Shown: positions 14,983 to 50,088 of the stretch, one piece after another
Layout of the letters: each line of letters begins with the position of its first letter
How positions within the stretch are numbered: position 1 is the first letter of the stretch
Virus record (IMG/VR): IMGVR_UViG_3300008255_000098
Source of the DNA: a virus
Taxonomy: Duplodnaviria > Caudoviricetes
DNA length: 64,000 nt
Strand: one strand, 5' to 3'
Program-made: the position numbers and the translations under genes
The notes under the pieces: generated by a model
Told to the model about the DNA's origin: nothing
The model's database searches: none
The model's input: the letters and a program-made list of their open reading frames with translations, nothing else

Positions 14983-15654
14983 TTATTTTGTGAGAGTTTG
15001 TACCAACTCGGTCCACTTTACTGTTGCTTCGCCCTCGATGGAAGTTTTCCCGCCAGGTCCGAGCCATAAATTTGGGTCTGTATGATCGCTGCTATAATCT
15101 CCAGTGGCAGCTTTATTTAGTACGTGTATGAGTTCGTGTACTGCTGGTTGCCCTTTTTCCGCAATAGTTGATAAATAATCTGTGCGGATGACTACCATAT
15201 CTACTCTTTTAGTTCCAAAAATACCAGAAAGCTCAACAGAATATGCGGCGACATGTTTTAGATTGTCATCCGACCACATCCCGACATCACCGCCAGCCTC
15301 GAAATTTTTGTTTGTTTTAAACAAAAAAATAACATGGGGTCTGCTCGCTTTTGTAATTTTTCTATTATGGAAAATTGTTTCAGTTGCTATCATCGCAACA
15401 GCACATTTTTCAGCCACGTCTTTTGCTTGCATTATTTTTCCGTCAACGATCCAAGCTTCTGTTTCGTTGGAAATTTTATTTTTGATTGAAGGTAAATCTT
15501 TATCGACTATTATGGTTGCAGTTTTTCCCCCAACAACCGCACTAAATTTATAGCCTTTTGGGAAATCAGGTCCACGCAAAATCTTAACTAAGGCCCATGC
15601 GCCAATTCCTAAGAATGTTACTACAGTTACTATTAAAATTATAATTCCAATCAT
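14983..15654 (-). CDS. Membrane-anchored zincin-like metallopeptidase (putative)
   Basis: N-terminal hydrophobic helix; AVHELIHVL (HExxH) followed by a downstream His (SDH). Confidence 0.55.
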   Translation of the reverse strand: MIGIIILIVTVVTFLGIGAWALVKILRGPDFPKGYKFSAVVGGKTATIIVDKDLPSIKNKISNETEAWIVDGKIMQAKDVAEKCAVAMIATETIFHNRKITKASRPHVIFLFKTNKNFEAGGDVGMWSDDNLKHVAAYSVELSGIFGTKRVDMVVIRTDYLSTIAEKGQPAVHELIHVLNKAATGDYSSDHTDPNLWLGPGGKTSIEGEATVKWTELVQTLTK

Positions 15655-15697
15655 TTCTTACCTCATGCGTGTTTGAAGTAAGTATTATTTCAGAATA

Positions 15698-16009
15698 TTA
15701 CTCGTCTAGTTTTTTATTTGGATTGTTTTTAATATCCATTTCAAGACCTAAAAGTCCATACCCAGCAATATCTGCAAAAGGACTTTCTCCTAAAGCATCT
15801 TTGTCAGTTGCAATCCGTTTAAGTTTATCAAAAATTCTTATTACACAAAGCATATCTTGATATTTCTCAGGAGGTATTCCGTCTGGATATAGCATCTTAA
15901 GAAACTCTCCTGCATCATTAAATGAGTTTCCGTAAGCCTTGTTTTTAATATCCACTATTTTTCCGATTTGCGTACCAAGTTTTTCGTATTTTGAATTTTC
16001 GTCTTGCAT
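15698..16009 (-). CDS. DUF1599 / nucleotide-modification-associated domain protein
   Basis: KNKAYGNSF...RIFDKLKRI...ESPFADIAGYGLL pattern. Confidence 0.75.
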   Translation of the reverse strand: MQDENSKYEKLGTQIGKIVDIKNKAYGNSFNDAGEFLKMLYPDGIPPEKYQDMLCVIRIFDKLKRIATDKDALGESPFADIAGYGLLGLEMDIKNNPNKKLDE

Positions 16010-16031
16010 GTTTTCTTTCGGGTGTTAAATC

Positions 16032-16060
16032 AGTATAGCAAGCTAACAAAAAGATTTGAA
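16032..16060 (-). promoter_or_regulatory. sigma70-like promoter
   Basis: TTCAAA-17 nt-TATACT upstream of 16009. Confidence 0.5.
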
Positions 16061-16092
16061 ATACTTTTTTAAACTTCTATTTACCAAGATAC

Positions 16093-16635
16093 ATGGTAAA
16101 ACAATACGAAAAGCTTGGGGAGAAAAAAATTATTCTAAAAGATAAAATGTCGGGGTACGATAAAAAACTTCTTTTAAAGACTTATAGATTACCAAATGGC
16201 GTAATAGAAAATTTTTTCATTGACGACGATAAAGATAGTGTCCAAATATTTCCGGTTACAACTGACAACATGGTGCTAACAGTTAGTCAATTCCGCCCTG
16301 GTATAGAAAAAACTATTATTGAGCTTCCAGGCGGCGGCCTAGAGAAGGGCGAAGACCCAAAAGAAGCCGCAAGCCGAGAGCTAAAAGAAGAGACAGGTTA
16401 TACTGGAACCTTGGTGTTTTTAGGAAAATTAAATTACAGCCCATATTCTTCTGGTTGTAAATACCTTTTTGCTGCTAAAGATTGTAAAAAAATTAGCGGA
16501 CTAGAACTAGACGAAAATGAATTTCTATCTGTTGTGAAATGGCCAATGAGTAAATTTAGAAAAACAATTTCCGGCGGAAAAATTAGAGGAACTGATTGCA
16601 TTTATATGGGATTAGATGCTTTGGACCTTTTATAA
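16093..16635 (+). CDS. Nudix hydrolase (ADP-ribose pyrophosphatase-like)
   Basis: Nudix box GGLEKGEDPKEAASRELKEETG; QFRP...IELPGG. Confidence 0.92.
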   Translation: MVKQYEKLGEKKIILKDKMSGYDKKLLLKTYRLPNGVIENFFIDDDKDSVQIFPVTTDNMVLTVSQFRPGIEKTIIELPGGGLEKGEDPKEAASRELKEETGYTGTLVFLGKLNYSPYSSGCKYLFAAKDCKKISGLELDENEFLSVVKWPMSKFRKTISGGKIRGTDCIYMGLDALDLL

Positions 16636-16636
16636 A

Positions 16637-16846
16637 CTATTCTTTTTCTTTCTTATTTTTATCTGTTCCATACGTGTAATCCAAATAAAATAATAAACCA
16701 GCAGGTTTTGACATAGGTTGCACGACAATTAGGTCCCTCACTAATTGCGAAGGGAAAATTCGTCTTTTCCGACCTGAACACATATAAAATATTGTTTTCC
16801 TTCGGCGATATATTTGAATTGAATCTCTAATGTTTTTAATATTCAT
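16637..16846 (-). CDS. 69-aa protein carrying a T4 gp23-type major capsid (Gol-region) segment
   Basis: Strong SD (AAAGGAG) just upstream of ATG; RRIFPSQLVRDLIVVQPMSKPAGLLFYLDYTYG matches the gp23-family VQPM..P.G motif without gaps. Confidence 0.8.
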   Translation of the reverse strand: MNIKNIRDSIQIYRRRKTIFYMCSGRKRRIFPSQLVRDLIVVQPMSKPAGLLFYLDYTYGTDKNKKEKE

Positions 16847-17033
16847 ATTTCTCCTTTATTTATCCTTTTTGGTTAGTTTTAACAAATATTTGTGTCGTTG
16901 GTAACAAAACTAAACTCAAAAAAAATTGGATATGCAGTAGTGTTTAACAAAGTTTTTTGACCCTAGAAAGAAACAACATAACTCTTCTAGATTTTTGTAT
17001 CTATCAGACCGTTTATATTTTTAATTGATATTA

Positions 17034-18080
17034 CTAAAACCTTCTTAATTTCGAGGGCACATGTGCTCTTGCCTTGCCAGCGATAGCCCTAGCTTCTGGT
17101 AAATTATGGTGGGCTCCTTTACTTGGAATATTTGATGCTCCTTCAGCATTTGCCTCTGATGCTTTTTTGATTTCTTTACCAACTCTTTCAATTAACCATT
17201 TTCTGTAACTCAATGGCATATTGTAATATGTTTTATAATCCATTCCAAAATAATATCCAAGTAAAAAAAATGGCTCTAAAAAAACCATTTCTCTATAATC
17301 AGAACTCAAAGAGAAAAATGAATGGTTTGTTGGAATGCTAACTGTCTCTGTGTGAGGACAACCTGCACAAGAAAAATCAGTTTTCATATCTAGTCCCGGT
17401 TTGTGTGTTTCAATGTATTTACGTAAAACATTACTATCTGTTGCTCTCATATTTAAAACAAATTTTCTAATTTGTTCTCTATCAGTAACGCCGTTTATTT
17501 TAACAATAGAGTTAAGCAAAACTGATGTAACAACTGTATATTCACCCTCATCAGAATTTTCTAATAATTGATTTATTATCTTTTCTTCTTTCACAGATAA
17601 GAATTTAAATAAGATTTCATGTCCAGACTTTGGCAAAACAAACTTAAATAAATTTTCTCCTGGTATCTCTGGAGTTAAATCAAGAAATTTAATTGGAACA
17701 CTTGCTAAATCAAAATGTAATGTATTTTGTGTCTCGCACTCTGGACATGTTAAAATCGGCTCAAATAGCCTTCCATACCCAGAGATACGAATAGCAACCA
17801 TTAAAGCATCTTTGTCCCCGATCAGCATATCAGATATATCAATTTCTGGCGCTAACAAACAAGAAGAAATCATTTTCTCAACGGAAATATTTTTCTTCTT
17901 GTAGGCAGAATTTAAAAGTATATCTTCCTGTCGTGGTGTCATTGCTTTATATTCAACAGTTTTTTTATTGAAAAAGAAACTATCTTTATTGTAAATTTTT
18001 CCACGAGAGGGCAATGGAACATAATCTACTGGTAAATCATTTCCAGTACTACTTGAGGTATGTTTCTTACCTTTCCTCAT
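17034..18080 (-). CDS. Baseplate/tail assembly chaperone (T4 gp26-like) with fused C-terminal domain
   Basis: VPLPSRGKIY, YKAMTPRQEDILL, GDKDALMVAIRISGYG, CPEC, CAGC; extra ~85-aa tail YREMVFLEPFFLLGYYFGMDYKTYYNMPLSYRKWLIER. Confidence 0.75.
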   Translation of the reverse strand: MRKGKKHTSSSTGNDLPVDYVPLPSRGKIYNKDSFFFNKKTVEYKAMTPRQEDILLNSAYKKKNISVEKMISSCLLAPEIDISDMLIGDKDALMVAIRISGYGRLFEPILTCPECETQNTLHFDLASVPIKFLDLTPEIPGENLFKFVLPKSGHEILFKFLSVKEEKIINQLLENSDEGEYTVVTSVLLNSIVKINGVTDREQIRKFVLNMRATDSNVLRKYIETHKPGLDMKTDFSCAGCPHTETVSIPTNHSFFSLSSDYREMVFLEPFFLLGYYFGMDYKTYYNMPLSYRKWLIERVGKEIKKASEANAEGASNIPSKGAHHNLPEARAIAGKARAHVPSKLRRF

Positions 18081-18088
18081 ATTAAATA

Positions 18089-18982
18089 TTATTTAAGAGT
18101 GTCTGGCCAGAAAAACTCAGGTCCCATTGGTAATGATATTTCTGCAACGTGGTCACAGCTGTAACACGAAAAATCCACCATCATATCCACACCGGGCTCA
18201 TGTTTATCTATGTAAGATCTGAGCGACAGACTATCTCTTGCTGGCATAAATTGCACAAATCTATTAATTTGTGAACGATCTTTTACTCCGTCTATTTCTA
18301 CAATAGAAGATAATAATCTAGTCGTAACAATGTTGTTGTTTTGAATACCCTTTTTGTTTTTAACTTCTAAAGTTTTGAGAATTTTTTCTTCCTCTTCACC
18401 AGTCAAAAATCTAAATCCGATATTTCTTTTAGAAACTGGAAGAGAGAAATAAAACAAATTTTCATAAGGGTTTGCAGGTTCTATATTTAAGGTTTTAATA
18501 CCTAAAGAACGTAAATCAATTTCGAGCTTACTTTGTACGCCGCAAGCTGGACATGTAAAACTTGGAAGATATTCACTTCCATATCCGGAGTCTCGGATTG
18601 CAATCATTAGTGCATTTCTGTCTCCGGAAATCATTTGGTTAACATCAACGCTTTTATCAGTCAGGCAGGACTTGATCAACTCTGTGATGACAGTTCCTTT
18701 TTTGATATATGCCTTGCTCATCAAAATATCTTCTTCACGTGCGGTCATTGACCTGAACTCAACCCTGTCTTTATTGTGCAAAGCGTGACCAGATGGGTAA
18801 ATTTTTCCAGCAGATGGCAAAGGAACAGCCTGAATAGGAATATCAAGCCCAAGTTCCTGTTTAGCATATTCTTGAGTGCTAATGGGCATTACTTCGCCAT
18901 TTTCAGCTGCTTGTTTTGCTGCAAATACAGAATTTCTATATTCTCTTTGCTCTTCTTCAGTCATTTGATTTTGTTCACTCAT
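18089..18982 (-). CDS. Baseplate/tail assembly chaperone (T4 gp26-like)
   Basis: VPLPSAGKIY, FRSMTAREEDILM, GDRNALMIAIRDSGYG, CPAC, CYSC, ends FFWPDTLK; paralog of 17034-18080. Confidence 0.8.
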   Translation of the reverse strand: MSEQNQMTEEEQREYRNSVFAAKQAAENGEVMPISTQEYAKQELGLDIPIQAVPLPSAGKIYPSGHALHNKDRVEFRSMTAREEDILMSKAYIKKGTVITELIKSCLTDKSVDVNQMISGDRNALMIAIRDSGYGSEYLPSFTCPACGVQSKLEIDLRSLGIKTLNIEPANPYENLFYFSLPVSKRNIGFRFLTGEEEEKILKTLEVKNKKGIQNNNIVTTRLLSSIVEIDGVKDRSQINRFVQFMPARDSLSLRSYIDKHEPGVDMMVDFSCYSCDHVAEISLPMGPEFFWPDTLK

Positions 18983-31874: not shown

Positions 31875-34319
31875 TTATATGTTATTCTGCATTTCTCGCA
31901 ATTTCTTTCTAACAAAAGAATGTTCATCTTCGCTTATAGTACTTGTGTACTCACTTACTTCTTGGTCAGTAAGAATCCTAAGTTTAGATTTTGCAGTATC
32001 TAAATGAATCTGATATTTGATTCCATCAATACCTGCTCTGTTTTTAGCTATAAAAATGTTGCCAAATCCTGTTGCCTTGTTTGCAGATTTACGTAAAAGG
32101 CCTACAACAAAATCAGCCACGTGCGCTTGTCCGTACCCTTCAGCCATGTTTGTTAAATCAACAACGTCACTGTTAGCACCTTCTTTATTAGACTGAATCG
32201 CAGTCCAAATTGGAACATCAAGTTCGGTAGCTAATGCTCGCAACTCTTCCATAACCTTCTTCAATTCCAGTCTTAAAAGTTCATAACGGTCAGATGAACG
32301 CATAATACCAGCATAATCTACTAGAATTATATTTGGTACAAAGCCTTGTGTCGAAAGTTTGTCAATGTGGCCTCTAAGAGTCATAGCTGAGGCACTCGCA
32401 GTTGGGTAGTACTTGATCCTGAGTCTTCCAAGATTTTCTTTGTTTTCTTGGTAATATGTTTTGATTTCTTCTTTACAATCAAAACATTCGAGACTAGGAA
32501 TATCCATAATATGTGAGTCATATCTAATACCCATTGCTCTTTCGTTGAGTTCAAATGTGTAATGTAAAACATTACGTTTATGCAATAATGCCTGAGCACC
32601 CACATGAACTAAAAAGTGTGATTTTCCACAATTATGATGAACTATGAAATCTCCCGTTAGATATAAATGATCGCCTGTTAAAGTAAACCCGTAAAAATCA
32701 TCTTGTTCAAGAGCTTCAATTTCAAACCCGATGCGAGAAACATCTTTAATTTGACATCGTGGTTTTGCTTGTTTTCTTGCAAGACGTGTTGGTACAATTG
32801 ACGTTTCACCAAAAATTGTTACAGCATAGCACGTTCCAGAATAATTATTTTGACAACTTTTACTTGTCTTTTCGCTATAAGAAGCTAAACCTAAGCTTTT
32901 ACTTAAAAAGACAATATCATCAGCTAGTTGTTTGGATTTTGTTATATGACAAAAACACTTATTATTCAAATAACCACATGCGTCCAATAAGCCAGCAAGC
33001 ATTTCCAATCTATTTTTTCTGGAAGCAACTTTGTATTGTTGTGGAATAAATTTGTTCCCACCCTTCTTGCCCGCCAACCCAAGTTCGGACAAAATCTTTA
33101 CTATAGAATTGTTGTGTTTATAACCATTTGTAATGTAGTAGCCAGCTGTTTTATTCCCTTCTTTAGGGAGGCTTGAAATTCTAAACCCTGCGTTTGGAGC
33201 GAATTGCTGCCATTCATTTAAAATTTCCTCATCAGCTGTCGTTAGTTCAACTCTGTTTTTGTTGATAAAATCGCCGCCCAATAATGTTCCCAAAAGGTAC
33301 GGAGGAATTGGCAATTTTGTCTGGTATGTTTCTTCAAAAGACACACCTTTTGTGTATAACTTATATTGGTGTTTGAACGTTTTGCTCTTGTCTAAATAGT
33401 CTTTAACAGAAATGTTAATAACTTCGCCGTTCTTTTTTGGGTTTCTACTTTTGCACCCAAGATTTGTTCTCTGCAAAGAAAGAATATGATTTTCGTTGAC
33501 AACAAACGAGTCTCCCTTATTGGGAGTAATTTTGTACATGTTTTCTTTTCCACGTACTAATTTTAATACCCTTCTTGGTTTACTGTCCGACCCCATTATT
33601 AGGTCGCCGACTTGAATATCTTCAATTTTTTCCAAAGTCCCGTTATAGGTGAGAATTTCTGTACCTTTTGCATGACACCCAGTTGGAGCAATACACACTC
33701 CAAGTTCTCCAGCGCCAAGTCCACCGTTCAAGATTTTTCTTTGGTCTAATTCAGGAATACCAGTTGGTACTGTTTTTCGTGCTGTCTCAGAATATCTACT
33801 TTCAACATCTTCAAAAAGATCTAATCCCGGAGAATGATGATTCCCCGCATTAATTGCGGTTTTAACAACATCAATTACTTTGTCATATTTTTCTGATTCA
33901 ATTAGACCGACACTATCCATAAGCGCCTGGTGCAATCTTCTTCTTTTACAGAAGTCTAATGCTTTTTCTTTAACATGCGGTAAATCACCTAGGTCTTGGT
34001 TTGTGGCAACCTTTTTAAGAAAGGTTTTAATTTGGTCTAAAAGAAGCTTATCGTTCTGATTTTTCAATTCAGTTTTAAGCATTGTGATCAGCAACTCTGT
34101 TGATGGAAACTCCTTATATTTCCTATAATAGGACAAATAGGTTGAGGTTACCAACTTCAAATAACTAAATTGAAAAAAATCAATGTCGATAACTTCATTT
34201 AATTGTGAAGCCCACTGTCTGTCCATTATTAGGGCTTGGACTATTTTCTCTTGGAAAGATTTATCAAATGAAAAATGTGTAGGTTGTTGTTGTTGTTGTT
34301 CTGTCATTTCTTCTTGCAT
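31875..34319 (-). CDS. dnaB: Replicative DNA helicase (DnaB/gp41-like) with intein
   Basis: GLGAGELGV.IAPTG|intein|CGKS Walker A, ILVDYAGIM, WTAIQSNK, KNRAG. Confidence 0.92.
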   Translation of the reverse strand: MQEEMTEQQQQQPTHFSFDKSFQEKIVQALIMDRQWASQLNEVIDIDFFQFSYLKLVTSTYLSYYRKYKEFPSTELLITMLKTELKNQNDKLLLDQIKTFLKKVATNQDLGDLPHVKEKALDFCKRRRLHQALMDSVGLIESEKYDKVIDVVKTAINAGNHHSPGLDLFEDVESRYSETARKTVPTGIPELDQRKILNGGLGAGELGVCIAPTGCHAKGTEILTYNGTLEKIEDIQVGDLIMGSDSKPRRVLKLVRGKENMYKITPNKGDSFVVNENHILSLQRTNLGCKSRNPKKNGEVINISVKDYLDKSKTFKHQYKLYTKGVSFEETYQTKLPIPPYLLGTLLGGDFINKNRVELTTADEEILNEWQQFAPNAGFRISSLPKEGNKTAGYYITNGYKHNNSIVKILSELGLAGKKGGNKFIPQQYKVASRKNRLEMLAGLLDACGYLNNKCFCHITKSKQLADDIVFLSKSLGLASYSEKTSKSCQNNYSGTCYAVTIFGETSIVPTRLARKQAKPRCQIKDVSRIGFEIEALEQDDFYGFTLTGDHLYLTGDFIVHHNCGKSHFLVHVGAQALLHKRNVLHYTFELNERAMGIRYDSHIMDIPSLECFDCKEEIKTYYQENKENLGRLRIKYYPTASASAMTLRGHIDKLSTQGFVPNIILVDYAGIMRSSDRYELLRLELKKVMEELRALATELDVPIWTAIQSNKEGANSDVVDLTNMAEGYGQAHVADFVVGLLRKSANKATGFGNIFIAKNRAGIDGIKYQIHLDTAKSKLRILTDQEVSEYTSTISEDEHSFVRKKLREMQNNI
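32631..33677 (-). mobile_element. Intein (349 aa) with LAGLIDADG-type endonuclease domain in the helicase P-loop
   Basis: N-terminal CHAKGT, block B HILSL, C-terminal FYGFTL...VHHN followed by Cys+1; LAGLIDADG-like YLLGTLLGGD and LAGLLDACG. Confidence 0.92.
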
Positions 34320-47900: not shown

Positions 47901-48637
47901 ATTTCTTCAAAATCATTCATATTTGGCGACCATAAATCCCACTCTGGCTCTGTTTGGTGTCCAAAAACTATTCTACCAGGCTGTCCACCAATACATGCAC
48001 TAGTTGCTATAATATTTCCATTGGAAAATTTCTTTAGCATGTCAAAATCCATACGGGGAAAACGATAAAATCCGTCTATATATGATCTTGATACCATCTG
48101 AAATAAAGATTCAAGACCTTCAATATTTTTTGGCAATAAAACCAAATGGTTCCTTTGTTTCAACGGGTCATTATGTTTATTTTTCTTTGAAGCATCTTCA
48201 TCTTCAACAACAGTTCCACCCTCCATATCTTCTTCAATTTTTTTTGATTTATCAGTTTCAAATGGATTGTTATCTAGTTTTTTTTGAATTCGCAAAGCTT
48301 CTGTAGCATCAGCGTCACCGCCTGCGGAAAGCTTTTTCAAGCTTTTAGTTTCTTTGTCCTTTAAATATAGGTTTTTCCAATCTGCCAATGAATCAATAAA
48401 ATATGCTTCTATTCCAGGAATTGCTTTGAATTTTTGTCCATTTTTATGTAATTTTTGGTTATGCAAAAATTGGTGCGTATAACCATTCATGTTTCCATGA
48501 TCTGTAAGCGCAAGTGCGTCCATTTCATTTTCTATTGCAAAATCTATATGGTCTTGCGGCATACCTATGGCATCTCCTATTGAAAATGTTGAATGGCTAT
48601 GCAGTCCTACAAACTTTTTTGGGTATCTATTTTTCAT
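44945..48637 (-). CDS. dnaE: DNA polymerase III alpha subunit (C-family)
   Basis: PHP domain HSHSTFS/TDHG/TDAHY; ARGSAAGSL; FERFL; PDIDSD; RHAGG; KFDILGL; FNKSHA. Confidence 0.97.
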   Translation of the reverse strand: MKNRYPKKFVGLHSHSTFSIGDAIGMPQDHIDFAIENEMDALALTDHGNMNGYTHQFLHNQKLHKNGQKFKAIPGIEAYFIDSLADWKNLYLKDKETKSLKKLSAGGDADATEALRIQKKLDNNPFETDKSKKIEEDMEGGTVVEDEDASKKNKHNDPLKQRNHLVLLPKNIEGLESLFQMVSRSYIDGFYRFPRMDFDMLKKFSNGNIIATSACIGGQPGRIVFGHQTEPEWDLWSPNMNDFEEIQNELKEMVDKFKWALGEENYYLELQFNRLEPQHLVNQHLIECSKRTGTPLVVTTDAHYSNPKHWKQREIYKMMAWASKGMDMNKENLPKSVDELKCELYPKNASQIWDTYLSTTKDKGWDFYDDDIVREAIERTYDIAHDQIDDISPDTKVKLPSISYLATDSNLKAIEAKFGEDISEESAAFQELKRQAIAGMKYRRLLDSQEHIDRLKEELKVVKHLKFSKYFLTYSKIMENISSQMLCGLARGSAAGSLLSYVLNITQLDPIKYGLLFERFLTRFKKGFPDIDSDFADRDKAVKIIAEHFGEENVIPVSNFNQLQLRSLVKDLCKLDGVPFEEVNNYTKKIEAEALAEAKKNAGFDRQGWVLTYDVASKDSQTFRELMNKFPELETNIKILFKQMRNVSRHAGGVIITEKPEKHMPIIKSGGVLQTPWQEGLNFRHLENLGFLKFDILGLGTLRIFENTVKRILKNQGIKHPTFEQVSKWFYENVHPDNNTMDDPKVYKEVYEEGKWAGIFQFVQSPVQKFVMKMKPKNIIDLATATSIFRPGPLGISADKLYLKNRAKPEEIAYKHPLLKEVLGDTYGLIVFQEQLQLIYNKLAGVPLEETDGIRKAFMKKDMSNKVEAAKERLKLREFFADKCLEVNDIPKSISYSIFEDIEKFIAYSFNKSHAVSYTITSYQCAWLLTYYPDEWTASYIDYCAVDKGQAAGRESPVSVALGDAKGIGYKVGKPDINTSDVDYQIINKVLIPSFQALKHVGVPTLQEIREYRPYTKIEDLVWNPDETWRHSKFNKKALSTLIKLEAFSSMDLVGKGKTFKNYRQMHYVLVDNGDKIKRACARKKDPQPKEVLQTLIAEAQELDDWTLEEKINNSQTLAGSVDINLIIPKNVREYLDSSGLGSVDEHKSKHEWYWCVVKRSAQYKTRNNKPYLRMKIFGESGRERDCFIWGYNPVKDFPIPSNTLVLAKFEKSDFGLSTFYSKIEVIDRG

Positions 48638-50088
48638 TTATCATTTATTTCTCTACTAAAAAGGGTTTGTCCGCAATCCCAAATTTTATATAAACCTTGG
48701 GAATAACCGGAATTTCCACGAAATTTTAATCTATGGTAGGTTCTCTTACCGTCTGTCCACCTAAAACTAACACTTGTTTTTTTCTTTATAAAGCCTAATT
48801 TTAAAAGGTAATTTCCATTTCCATATCGTTCGTCTACAAACGTAATAATTTGTGACGGTTTTTCCGTCTTGATAACTTTGCTAATTAGCCTTGAATATCC
48901 TCCAACAACACTTGTATTGGCTAGCGTGCAAAATCTTGAGATTTCTAAGACTTTAGTTTTTTTGTTTTTCCATTTAACCTGTATGGCTGCAACAAGCTTA
49001 TCATTATTATATAAACCATAAACTCGGCCTGCGCCTGGACCCATTAGGTGATTATCCTGATAAAAGTCTTTTATTGTACTTTTTTTTGTTTCTTCTTTTA
49101 CAATTAACTTTCTTGCAAATAATTTGCAAGTGTTTGCAAGAAGGGCGTTTCCTATAATTGACTTAACAATTATTTCTTTATTTACAATTTCATCACTTCT
49201 AAAGAAAAAAGTTTTATACCCATTTTCCTTGTAGAATTCTTTCTTTTTAAAATGATATTTTTTGTCCTTATTAACTCTATCACAATGCCATGCCAAACCG
49301 TCACATTCAATTATAATATTTTTATGCGGCAAAATAAAATCTGGTCTATAAGTTTTGAATTTTGTAACATCATATAAAATTTCTCCATCATATATTTCAC
49401 TAATAAGTTTATTCACCGTACTCTCAATTCCTGTTTTATTTAGTGAGAGTTTTTTGGCCGTTTCAATTCCTTGTTCATTTGTAACTTGCTTAAAATAAGA
49501 GTATGAAATTTCCAATTCATCTGCCCATTCCAGCATGGTCTTGTTGCCAAATTGGTATGTCAATCCCCTTTCAATTCGTGTATTTCTTGTTTTTTCTTTA
49601 ACAATAGAACTTTTTGTTGCCCAATCTATCCCATATTTTTTTGTAAATGAATTTCTTAAATTTTGTTTTACTATTTCTGCTTGCATTGGGTGTTCAACAC
49701 CATATTTTTCAATACTAGTTTTTCTAACCGCTTCTTTCATTTCACCATTTTCCCAACGATCTTTAAGCAATTTTGATAGTTTATTTCGTTTTTCTTTTGA
49801 AATTACGGCTTTGCCTTCGAGCCGTAATTTTTTGAAGGTATCTATCATCTTCTTATTTTGCTCTTTTGTCCTTTTATAAGAACCGCATTGTTTTCTGGTA
49901 CTTACTCCTAAAGCTAGAGCACAGGACCTACTACAAGTTTTTTGGCTAAGCCGAAAAGAAGTATCCTGAAATGTGTTTTTGCACCATAAACATTCTTTTT
50001 GTCTACGAGCAACACGTTTTGCTCGTTGATTTTTATTATGTTGTTTGAGATTTTTGATTTGTTTTTTAGACTGTTGTTTTTTAGGCAT
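48634..50088 (-). CDS. Free-standing putative homing endonuclease (PD-(D/E)XK/DUF559-like with Hef-type C-terminal domain)
   Basis: CLWC..CSRSC, KYGVEH/KYGIDW repeats, RPDFILP..IIIECDGLAWH, EISRFC, DERYG, IWDCG. Confidence 0.75.
   Translation of the reverse strand: MPKKQQSKKQIKNLKQHNKNQRAKRVARRQKECLWCKNTFQDTSFRLSQKTCSRSCALALGVSTRKQCGSYKRTKEQNKKMIDTFKKLRLEGKAVISKEKRNKLSKLLKDRWENGEMKEAVRKTSIEKYGVEHPMQAEIVKQNLRNSFTKKYGIDWATKSSIVKEKTRNTRIERGLTYQFGNKTMLEWADELEISYSYFKQVTNEQGIETAKKLSLNKTGIESTVNKLISEIYDGEILYDVTKFKTYRPDFILPHKNIIIECDGLAWHCDRVNKDKKYHFKKKEFYKENGYKTFFFRSDEIVNKEIIVKSIIGNALLANTCKLFARKLIVKEETKKSTIKDFYQDNHLMGPGAGRVYGLYNNDKLVAAIQVKWKNKKTKVLEISRFCTLANTSVVGGYSRLISKVIKTEKPSQIITFVDERYGNGNYLLKLGFIKKKTSVSFRWTDGKRTYHRLKFRGNSGYSQGLYKIWDCGQTLFSREINDK

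What the first reader, a model, noticed from the sequence alone, without database searches (positions are those of the whole stretch)
16637..16846. Stand-alone mini-gene encoding the Gol-peptide segment of a major capsid protein
Seen: a 69-aa ORF with a strong SD (AAAGGAG). Residues 28-60 (16765-16667) read RRIFPSQLVRDLIVVQPMSKPAGLLFYLDYTYG, flanked by unrelated basic residues, and there is no other capsid sequence around it. Known (recalled, should be verified): T4 gp23 contains RRAIPNLIAFDICGVQPMNSPTGQVFAL; the ungapped alignment shares R,R,P,D,V,Q,P,M,P,G,F,L (12 of 28). This stretch is the Gol peptide, which binds EF-Tu and activates the Lit anti-phage protease. Inference: retaining just this epitope as a separately expressed peptide suggests an EF-Tu-binding translation modulator, a decoy for capsid-sensing immunity (Lit- or CapRel-like), or a capsid assembly modulator, rather than random debris.
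Basis: partly seen in the sequence, partly recalled or inferred. Interest (0 to 1): 0.85.

Follow-up and report, generated by a model that had tools for sequence, protein, structure and literature searches.

The report
Conserved mini-gene copying a capsid-protein segment
A groundwater phage carries, far from its intact capsid gene, a small well-conserved gene whose product is little more than a copy of the most conserved stretch of the capsid protein (the stretch that in phage T4 binds host EF-Tu and triggers the Lit defence), and dozens of related phages have similar mini-genes, so it is a real but functionally untested "capsid-segment mimic".

Summary
Window 16637-16846(-) is a 69-aa ORF with a strong ribosome-binding site. 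Residues 28-64 score above Pfam's cut-off for Gp23, covering profile positions 13-49 of 376. No other capsid sequence lies in the 64 kb.

- It is not debris. The phage's own 640-aa major capsid protein (MCP) gene lies about 57 kb away, is intact and keeps its own copy of the segment (56% identical to the mini-gene).
- Syntenic mini-ORFs follow the gp26-like baseplate-hub gene in three other lineages whose hub proteins are only 45-78% identical.
- A profile search found dozens of 63-100-aa proteins with the same 38-residue core and unrelated flanks. Nine lie inside contigs.
- Synonymous sites are saturated while the core stays conserved (dN/dS about 0.07-0.29 where it can be estimated).
- Xanthomonas phage XacN1 has the segment fused to the C-terminus of a 261-aa protein. 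One metagenomic relative has several small ORFs that each join a shared leader helix to a different MCP piece.

The core aligns to T4 gp23 R100-G132, which I recall as covering most of the Gol region. The function is untested. My best reading is a trans-acting mimic that competes for whatever reads this motif: EF-Tu or a motif-sensing defence, or else MCP or scaffold. I found no prior description.

The parts
16637..16846 (-). Mini-gene CDS. It encodes a 69-aa protein with net charge about +10 by my own count.
   Evidence: ORF list. The identical protein is called as a gene on 12 metagenome contigs. Pfam Gp23 hit.
16667..16765 (-). MCP-derived core, residues 28-60 (RRIFPSQLVRDLIVVQPMSKPAGLLFYLDYTYG). 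It aligns to own-MCP residues 89-122 and to T4 gp23 R100-G132.
   Evidence: BLASTP against the phage's own MCP: 19/34 identical, E=2e-13. T4 numbering comes from the PDB alignment and the L106 landmark in PMC9546572. Across a 32-member family alignment P44, M45 and F53 are invariant, and Q43, P48, G50, D56 and Y59 are at least 90% conserved.
16778..16846 (-). N-terminal amphipathic leader helix, residues 1-23 (MNIKNIRDSIQIYRRRK...). Its motif h-K/R-x-h-h-x-x-Y-K/R is shared with the hub-linked subfamily.
   Evidence: AF2 predicts a helix at residues 3-23 with pLDDT about 88. A leader profile finds only the mini-genes and MCP-piece ORFs, and no other ORF of this phage, among the regions fetched.
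16637..16666 (-). Short lysine-rich tail (TDKNKKEKE) plus the stop codon. It is not homologous between family members.
   Evidence: Family alignment.
16851..16857 (-). Shine-Dalgarno AAAGGAG, four bases upstream of the ATG.
   Evidence: Sequence. It is among the strongest SD matches of the window's gene starts.
16847..17033 (-). 187-nt spacer between the hub gene and the mini-gene, specific to this lineage. Relatives have spacers of 1-60 nt.
   Evidence: DNA alignment. No sigma-70-like promoter lies in the spacer and no terminator or Rfam match was found in 15600-17400.
17034..18080 (-). gp26-like baseplate hub protein (348 aa) directly upstream. It is the conserved synteny anchor of the mini-gene.
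   Evidence: phrog_150 E=2e-22. PF12322 T4_baseplate. Relatives found.
18089..18982 (-). Second gp26-like hub paralogue (297 aa).
   Evidence: phrog_150 E=2.8e-20.
16093..16635 (+). Convergent NUDIX hydrolase gene. Its stop codon ends one base before the last base of the mini-gene's stop codon.
   Evidence: phrog_1185 and PF00293.

Best explanation
Shown: this is a genuine accessory gene of a roughly 201-kb groundwater myophage with a gp23-type capsid. Its 69-aa, very basic product has three parts:
- an N-terminal amphipathic helix;
- a 33-38-residue copy of the most conserved segment of the major capsid protein, equivalent to T4 gp23 100-132;
- a short charged tail.

By my recollection the T4 Gol region is residues 93-122, so the core would contain most of it, followed by the first strand of the E-loop/I-domain linker. 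The gene arose by partial duplication of an MCP gene. It belongs to a widespread family of 63-100-aa proteins kept under purifying selection.

Inferred: the fragment lacks the rest of the HK97 fold, yet it conserves the same residues as the MCP. I read this as evidence that an intermolecular contact keeps those residues in place. The protein would then act in trans as a mimic ('microprotein') of that MCP segment, competing with MCP for whatever binds it.

My preferred partner is host-side. In T4 this segment binds EF-Tu domains II/III, and motif-reading defences such as Lit key on it. The mini-protein would pre-occupy or titrate EF-Tu or such a sensor. That would make it a host-takeover or counter-defence accessory protein, not a building block of the virion.
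For: A real, selected gene:
- The Pfam and PHROG hits are significant.
- The identical ORF occurs on 12 contigs from several aquifer and groundwater samples.
- Syntenic homologues sit right after the hub gene in L010, L013/L014, L018/L035 and L043, where hub identity is only 45-78%.
- The profile search's top hits include about 40 proteins of 100 aa or less. The 32 I inspected mostly have their own Met and unrelated tails.
- Nine members were checked and lie inside contigs, each with its own stop codon.
- In the core, pS is 0.58-1.06 (saturated) while pN is 0.14-0.39. Where dS can be estimated, dN/dS is 0.07-0.29. Conservation falls on codon positions 1 and 2.

An extra copy, not a split gene:
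- The phage's own MCP (P0153, 640 aa) is intact and keeps residues 85-122.

Accessory and host-facing:
- Distribution is patchy. The mini-gene is absent within 5 kb of the hub gene in most of the 28 related loci.
- It was never found in a head-morphogenesis module. The contexts are a hub operon, RNR/DnaB/exonuclease (L059), and thymidylate synthase/DHFR/DnaJ (L044).
- The flanks vary strongly around an invariant core.
- The segment is also fused to an unrelated 220-aa domain in XacN1 ORF261, and that fusion is conserved in its homologues.

Literature:
[quoted passage not shown] It binds EF-Tu domains II/III and inhibits the EF-Tu GTPase. It has been proposed to bind EF-Tu in all hosts of T4-related phages (PMC3014915).
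- Lit and CapRel read MCP through short motifs (bioRxiv 10.64898/2026.01.04.697583). Avs7 recruits EF-Tu as a structural component (same preprint).
Against: - No binding, expression or phenotype data exist. No RNA runs hold this phage.
- In the hub-linked clade the gene sits in what looks like a late structural operon. That fits an assembly role at least as well.
- A free Gol peptide activates Lit in T4, so a simple decoy against Lit-type systems is not the natural expectation.
- EF-Tu is extremely abundant, so stoichiometric titration would be costly.
- The best-conserved stretch, GLLFYLDYxYG, lies just beyond the Gol region as I recall its limits.
- In L043 other MCP pieces (spine helix and C-terminal P-domain strands) are encoded the same way. 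EF-Tu binding does not explain that.
- The window's copy is the most diverged member, 47-69% identical to other cores.
Confidence: 0.35

Rival explanations
1. Capsid-assembly modulator. The mini-protein binds MCP, or the scaffold, in place of the MCP's own N-proximal strand. It would act as a dominant-negative regulator or a chaperone-like strand donor that tunes the timing, size or fidelity of head assembly. In phages with several leader-tagged pieces, the pieces might reassemble into a split P-domain/E-loop module.
For: - In T4 the residues up to L106 face the scaffolding core in the unexpanded head and later form the N-arm/N-fist. The length mutants A94V and G97S map just upstream of the segment (PMC9546572).
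- In four lineages the gene directly follows hub genes on the same strand, separated by 1-60 nt.
- L043 encodes the N segment, the spine-helix piece and the C-terminal P-domain strands. Each is behind the same leader helix. In my reading of the HK97 fold, these are the elements that pack together in the P-domain.
- The residues conserved in the mini-proteins are the ones conserved in MCPs.
Against: - The gene was never found in a head module.
- It is absent from most close relatives, so it is not needed for assembly.
- The native strand is covalently attached to MCP and would out-compete a free peptide.
- The window phage has only one of the pieces.
Confidence: 0.28
2. Tail or baseplate-hub accessory factor. 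The MCP-derived strand was co-opted as a binding module for the gp26-like hub proteins it is encoded beside.
For: The gene lies immediately downstream of the hub gene in the window, L010, L013/L014, L018/L035 and L043.
Against: - This synteny is confined to one clade and so is not independent evidence.
- Other family members sit next to RNR/DnaB or thymidylate synthase/DHFR genes with no hub gene nearby.
- The XacN1 fusion gene is annotated far from its hub gene: ORF261 against ORF317.
- Most hub-bearing relatives lack the mini-gene.
Confidence: 0.08
3. Head-targeting tag or minor internal protein. The MCP segment, with or without the leader helix, directs the peptide into the prohead. In XacN1 it would direct a fused 220-aa cargo domain.
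For: - XacN1 ORF261 carries the segment as a C-terminal appendage on an unrelated domain.
- The window's product is very basic, as some internal head proteins are.
- The leader in L010 resembles the T4 capsid-targeting sequence and ends I-N-E. This is from the sequence and my recollection of the T4 sequence.
- First-stage notes propose cargo tags in this genome (e1-5341266). Those notes are unverified.
Against: - The hydrophobic-x-Glu cleavage motif is not conserved in the family and is absent from the window's copy.
- The XacN1 paper's main text, as searched, does not mention ORF261 among the proteins identified in virions.
- The conserved part lies mostly downstream of the scaffold-facing region.
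Confidence: 0.1
4. Non-functional remnant of an MCP duplication or of a mobile-element insertion, retained by chance or hitch-hiking.
For: - Fragments of MCP do occur as apparent debris. One example is a degenerate 69-aa stretch 4 kb from the MCP in L075.
- The window's copy is the most diverged of the family.
Against: - The frame stays open, with a start codon, in every lineage checked.
- The core is conserved across lineages whose synonymous sites are saturated.
- The homology begins and ends at the same MCP positions in 32 members.
- The window's copy has a strong SD.
- No flanking decayed MCP sequence exists.
Confidence: 0.05

Closest known systems
Gol peptide of phage T4 gp23 (the 29-residue activator of the e14 Lit protease, which binds EF-Tu)
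   Same: Homologous sequence. The mini-protein's residues 28-55 align without gaps to T4 R100-L127 with 12/28 identities. The family consensus FPSLIAxEIVSVQPMSLPSG matches T4 IPNLIAFDICGVQPMNSPTG at about 12/20 positions.
   Different: In T4 the Gol peptide is only a region inside the 521-aa capsid protein. Free Gol exists only as a laboratory construct. Here the segment is a natural, separately encoded and conserved small protein with its own leader and tail. EF-Tu binding and Lit activation were not tested.
gp24 vertex protein and other MCP paralogues of T4-like phages
   Same: All derive from duplication of the gp23-type capsid gene within a phage genome.
   Different: gp24 keeps the whole HK97 fold and builds pentons. 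The mini-protein keeps only profile positions 13-49 of 376 and cannot form a capsomer.
MicroProteins of eukaryotes (Id and LITTLE ZIPPER type): small proteins that copy one interaction motif of a larger protein and regulate it by competition. This comparison is from my own knowledge.
   Same: The architecture and the inferred logic match: a short protein made of one conserved interaction segment of a larger protein encoded in the same genome.
   Different: It occurs in a different domain of life. No interaction has been shown here, and the parent is a structural protein, not a transcription factor.
DSAD1 inhibitor of DSR2 (a phage protein that counteracts a sensor triggered by a phage structural protein)
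   Same: It is a precedent for a phage accessory protein that counters a defence system triggered by one of the phage's own structural proteins (abstract of PMC11087589).
   Different: As far as I know DSAD1 is not derived from the trigger protein, the tail tube. The mini-protein is a literal copy of part of a known T4 trigger.
XacN1 ORF261 (BBA65409.1, hypothetical protein)
   Same: It carries the same MCP segment (RRIIPGLIAQDLVGVQPMAPNTGQIFQLRNTY) in a phage that also has a complete MCP.
   Different: The segment is the C-terminal 40 residues of a 261-aa protein with an unrelated N-terminal domain. It is not a stand-alone mini-gene.

Membership tests
Pfam PF07068 Gp23 (T4-type major capsid protein) | Sequence score above the curated gathering cut-off | tested here: met
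   29.6 bits against a cut-off of 24.4, E=6.3e-7.
Pfam PF07068 Gp23 (T4-type major capsid protein) | Complete HK97-type fold (A-domain, P-domain, spine helix) able to form capsomers | tested here: not met
   Only profile positions 13-49 of 376 are present. The protein is 69 aa, and no further MCP sequence lies in adjacent frames. It is a derivative of the family, not a capsid protein.
Gol-type EF-Tu-binding peptide / Lit activator | Homology to the Gol region of T4 gp23 | tested here: met
   Ungapped alignment to T4 R100-L127 gives 12/28 identities, using the T4 sequence from the PDB alignment. The 29-residue Gol region and its 20-residue core are described in PMC3014915. The coordinates 93-122 are from my own recollection.
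Gol-type EF-Tu-binding peptide / Lit activator | Binds EF-Tu domains II/III and enables Lit cleavage of EF-Tu at Gly59-Ile60 | not testable with these tools
   This needs biochemistry. The host is unknown.
Split or intron-interrupted capsid gene (the mini-ORF as a detached exon) | The genome's MCP gene lacks this segment, or the rest of the gene lies nearby | tested here: not met
   The phage's own MCP (640 aa) is intact and contains the segment at residues 85-122. It lies about 57 kb away on the other strand.
Pseudogene fragment | Neutral evolution, loss of the reading frame in relatives, decayed flanking homology | tested here: not met
   The frame is kept in all lineages checked. dN/dS is 0.07-0.29 with saturated dS. 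No flanking MCP remnants were found.
MicroProtein-like competitive mimic | A small protein consisting of one interaction segment of a larger protein encoded in the same genome | tested here: met
   69 aa, with a core 56% identical to own-MCP residues 89-122.
MicroProtein-like competitive mimic | Physically competes with the parent protein for a partner | not testable with these tools
   No usable computational result was obtained. It needs pull-downs or genetics.
T4-type capsid-targeting-sequence cargo | N-terminal amphipathic leader ending in a hydrophobic-x-Glu prohead-protease site | tested here: not met
   The window's leader MNIKNIRDSIQIYRRRK has no such site. Only L010's copy has I-N-E, and the motif is not conserved in the family.

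The most novel reading that the evidence does not exclude
Phages with gp23-type capsids carry a previously unrecognised class of 'capsid-fragment' microproteins. Each is a short gene joining a common leader helix to one of the three most conserved MCP segments: the N-proximal Gol-equivalent segment, the spine-helix start, or the C-terminal P-domain strands. They would serve as epitope decoys or antagonists for host sensors that read conserved MCP motifs, including EF-Tu-linked ones. That would be a general counter-defence strategy based on self-mimicry.
Probability: 0.2. Interest if true: 0.9.

Novelty: new variant of a known kind. Interest (0 to 1): 0.72.

Why it matters

This family is a natural experiment on that question. 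Evolution has excised that segment, kept it under selection without the rest of the fold, and spread it over many phages. That argues the segment has a function as an isolated binding element.

It also gives small, easily expressed test objects. XacN1 offers a cultured carrier.

- If the partner is EF-Tu or an immune sensor, this would be a new type of counter-defence or host-takeover factor based on self-mimicry.
- If the partner is MCP or scaffold, it would be a new kind of capsid-assembly regulator.

For annotation, short ORFs that hit Gp23 should not be dismissed as pseudogene fragments.

Tried and rejected
- Complex prediction of the mini-protein with its own full-length MCP, using family alignments, gave no verdict: score 0.00 and partner pLDDT below 50. 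It is not evidence either way.
- AF2 of the mini-protein alone gave a confident N-terminal helix only. The core was modelled as low-confidence helices with pTM 0.29, so it probably folds only on binding.
- AF2 of the own MCP from a 10-sequence alignment was unusable, with mean pLDDT 42. The structural mapping therefore rests on the T4 alignment and the literature.
- I tested whether the leader helix derives from the MCP's extreme N-terminus. Shuffle tests were inconsistent, p = 0.01-0.58 across members, so I make no such claim.
- Word-indexed searches for short homologues found only the query itself. The exhaustive profile search was needed.
- An IMG/VR scan with the family alignment returned almost only full MCPs: 78 of 80.
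- Population-level selection could not be measured. All contigs of this phage are 99.7-100% identical.
- No RNA-seq run holds the phage.
- No sigma-70-type promoter lies in the upstream spacer, and no terminator or Rfam element was found around the gene. I recognised no shared late-promoter motif.
- No whole genome is held. I located the MCP by walking the 201-kb contig with exact-protein look-ups.
- Rejected explanations: detached exon or split MCP, pseudogene, and recombination cassette. Against the last, synonymous sites in the core are saturated among family members and amino-acid identity to the own MCP is only 56%.

Full report
**1. The observation**

The minus strand of window 16637-16846 holds a 69-aa ORF. 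AAAGGAG lies four bases before its ATG. Residues 28-64 hit Pfam Gp23 above the curated cut-off: 29.6 against 24.4 bits, E=6.3e-7, profile positions 13-49 of 376. They also hit PHROG 138, major head protein. tblastn matches the same region of the MCP genes of 1,961 phage records.

The 12/28 identities are exact.

Nothing else in the 64-kb window resembles an MCP. I tested this with the peptide itself, with two full MCPs and with a clade-specific MCP profile in all six frames.

**2. What genome this is**

The window carries these genes:
- a large terminase
- a DNA polymerase
- UvsX
- a DnaB-type helicase
- ribonucleotide reductase
- ThyX
- two gp26-like baseplate hub paralogues
- a 1,605-aa tape-measure-like protein

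No whole genome is held. The identical mini-protein is called on 12 metagenome contigs, the longest 201,145 bp. All are 99.7-100% identical in DNA and come from aquifer and groundwater metagenomes.

I walked that contig with exact-protein look-ups. The window corresponds to contig positions 63,992-127,991. A first-stage note (e1-5341259) placed a scaffold gene about 42.6 kb before the window start. That agrees with what I found: a 766-aa gene followed by a 640-aa Gp23-family gene (P0153) at roughly contig 21.4-23.4 kb.

This MCP is intact and contains FPIVRRVFAGLIANEIVSVQPMSLPTGLLFYLDYSYGS at residues 85-122. The mini-protein is 19/34 identical to residues 89-122. So the mini-gene is an extra, diverged copy about 57 kb from the MCP gene and on the other strand. 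It is not a detached exon. No further MCP fragments occur in the roughly 110 kb of this phage that I could read.

**3. Relatives**

- An IMG/VR contig whose hub protein is 76-78% identical (L010) has a 66-aa ORF starting two bases after the hub gene. The N-terminus has diverged, but the core FPS..I..VQPMS.P.G.LFYLDY.Y is conserved.
- Among 28 metagenomic loci with hub proteins 25-59% identical, two more lineages have the mini-ORF in the same place: L013/L014 and L018/L035. The rest lack it within 5 kb.
- A profile of the two closest sequences, run against 1.84 billion cluster representatives, gave 1,408 hits. Most are MCPs, but the top of the list is dominated by proteins of 63-100 aa.
- The 32 short hits I retrieved mostly have their own Met and very different N-terminal and C-terminal flanks. 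A few look like truncated MCP N-termini and were left out of the alignment. One subfamily ends W..LRKAGLKRK. All share a 38-residue core, FP.VRRVFP.LIA.EIVSVQPMS.PSGLLFYLDY.YG.
- The homology to MCP starts and stops at the same MCP positions in all of them.
- Five further members were looked up. All lie inside contigs with flanking genes:

| Protein | Locus | Neighbouring genes |
|---|---|---|
| P0005 | L043 | hub gene |
| P0077 | L044 | thymidylate synthase, DHFR, DnaJ |
| P0014 | L059 | RNR, DnaB, exonuclease |
| P0003 | L042 | small unknown ORFs |
| P0134 | L058 | small unknown ORFs |

None is in a head module.

**4. Selection**

Over the 32-codon core, pairwise synonymous differences are saturated (pS 0.58-1.06). 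Non-synonymous differences stay at pN 0.14-0.39. Where dS can be estimated, dN/dS is 0.07-0.29. The DNA alignment shows conservation at codon positions 1 and 2.

This refutes neutral debris, as do the maintained frames and the common boundaries. The window's own copy is the most diverged member.

**5. Related architectures**

- The cultured jumbo phage XacN1 has a complete MCP (ORF274). It also has the same segment as the last 40 residues of ORF261, a 261-aa hypothetical protein. That fusion is conserved in 13 homologues at 48-97% identity.
- XacN1 also has an 86-aa ORF carrying the spine-helix piece of the MCP.
- In L043, three or four small ORFs around the hub gene each consist of the same leader plus a different MCP piece. 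The leader is ML(T/A)E.DI..FI..Y(K/R). The pieces are the spine-helix start, the C-terminal P-domain strands and the N segment.
- L013 has a weak C-terminal piece upstream of its hub gene.
- The leader motif is shared by the window's mini-protein. AF2 predicts it as a confident helix. It occurs in no other ORF of the regions I searched.

**6. Position in the capsid protein**

Numbering comes from the PDB alignment. It is checked by the statement that L106 is the first ordered residue of gp23* in the unexpanded T4 head (PMC9546572). On that numbering, mini residues R28-G60 equal T4 R100-G132.

According to that paper, the part up to L106 points into the prohead and probably contacts the scaffolding core. 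It later becomes the external N-arm/N-fist. The length mutants A94V and G97S lie just upstream.

By my reading of the T4 sequence, not shown in a structure here, the C-terminal half (T4 QVFALRAVYG) leads into the linker that carries the insertion domain. The mini-proteins stop about where that insertion begins.

The review PMC3014915 states the following:
- A 29-residue region of gp23 defines Gol, with a 20-residue core.
- It binds EF-Tu domains II/III and inhibits the EF-Tu GTPase.
- Binding makes EF-Tu cleavable by Lit.
- It is the most conserved part of gp23, which led to the suggestion that gp23 binds EF-Tu in all hosts of T4-related phages.

The coordinates 93-122 for Gol are from my own recollection.

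**7. Mechanism**

What is shown: a conserved, independently encoded copy of this one MCP segment.

What is inferred: the fragment lacks the rest of the fold but conserves the same residues as the MCP. The constraint is therefore probably an intermolecular contact, and the protein would work as a trans-acting mimic. I rank the candidate partners as follows.

| Candidate role | Estimate | Main arguments |
|---|---|---|
| Host-side: EF-Tu or a motif-reading sensor | about 0.35 | Patchy accessory distribution, fast-changing flanks, non-head contexts, known EF-Tu binding of the segment |
| MCP or scaffold: assembly control | about 0.28 | Hub-operon position; complementary P-domain pieces in L043 |
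| Head-targeting tag | about 0.1 | XacN1 fusion |
| Hub-associated factor | about 0.08 | Synteny within one clade |
| Remnant | about 0.05 | Most diverged copy; debris exists elsewhere (L075) |

A plain Lit decoy is unlikely, because free Gol activates Lit.

**8. Novelty**

Literature searches for Gol, capsid decoys, truncated MCPs and jumbo-phage comparative genomics found no description of stand-alone MCP-segment genes. Apart from the same stretch noted again in an overlapping window, the earlier notes of this scan hold none either.

Conceptually it resembles microproteins and competitive sensor inhibitors, so I class it as a new variant of a known kind. If the decoy or split-module reading proves right, it would be a new category.

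Noticed in passing
window 17034-18080(-); L013, L015-L017, L019, L021, L022, L024, L026, L028, L030, L031, L033, L043: The 348-aa gp26-like hub protein is one ORF in the window and in L010. In 14 related contigs (L013, L015-L017, L019, L021, L022, L024, L026, L028, L030, L031, L033, L043), residues about 5-256 and about 250-348 lie in two overlapping frames, with a +1 shift at the same place. This is either a conserved programmed frameshift or two overlapping genes that became fused in this lineage.
   Followed up: partly
L043:747-2897 (Logan ERR10503158 contig): Three or four small ORFs share a leader, ML(T/A)E.DI..FI..Y(K/R). Each carries a different conserved MCP piece: spine-helix start, C-terminal P-domain strands, or the N segment. 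They flank the hub gene.
   Followed up: partly
XacN1 AP018399.1 151297-152082 (ORF261) and 316358-316468: A cultured jumbo phage carries the MCP N segment as the C-terminal 40 residues of a 261-aa hypothetical protein. The fusion is conserved in 13 homologues. The phage also has an 86-aa ORF with the MCP spine-helix piece, beside a complete MCP.
   Followed up: partly
window 31875-34319(-): An 814-aa protein has a DnaB-type helicase match only at residues 563-795. Residues about 210-565 match terminase- or primase-like P-loop families. This may be a fusion or an insertion in the replicative helicase.
   Followed up: no
window 48634-50088(-): A 484-aa HNH/homing-endonuclease-like gene lies directly upstream of the 1,230-aa DNA polymerase gene and overlaps it.
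   Followed up: no
L075:5422-5628: A degenerate 69-aa stretch, KFPIVRRVEFPLFQLSAVSAQTMSLPSYLDYSYSS, lies about 4 kb downstream of the MCP match in an IMG/VR contig. It looks like a truly decayed copy of the same segment and is a useful contrast to the conserved mini-genes.
   Followed up: no
L044:6001-6237 and neighbours: In a 195-kb contig the mini-gene sits among thymidylate synthase, adenylosuccinate synthase, DHFR and a DnaJ-like gene. It is preceded by two paralogous 286- and 311-aa proteins with weak GATase_6 similarity.
   Followed up: no
L057:17817-20117(-) and 15838-17760(-): The head module of this phage has a 766-aa gene directly upstream of the 640-aa MCP. The first-stage note e1-5341259 calls the upstream gene the scaffold. 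The pair lies about 40.6-45 kb before the window start.
   Followed up: partly
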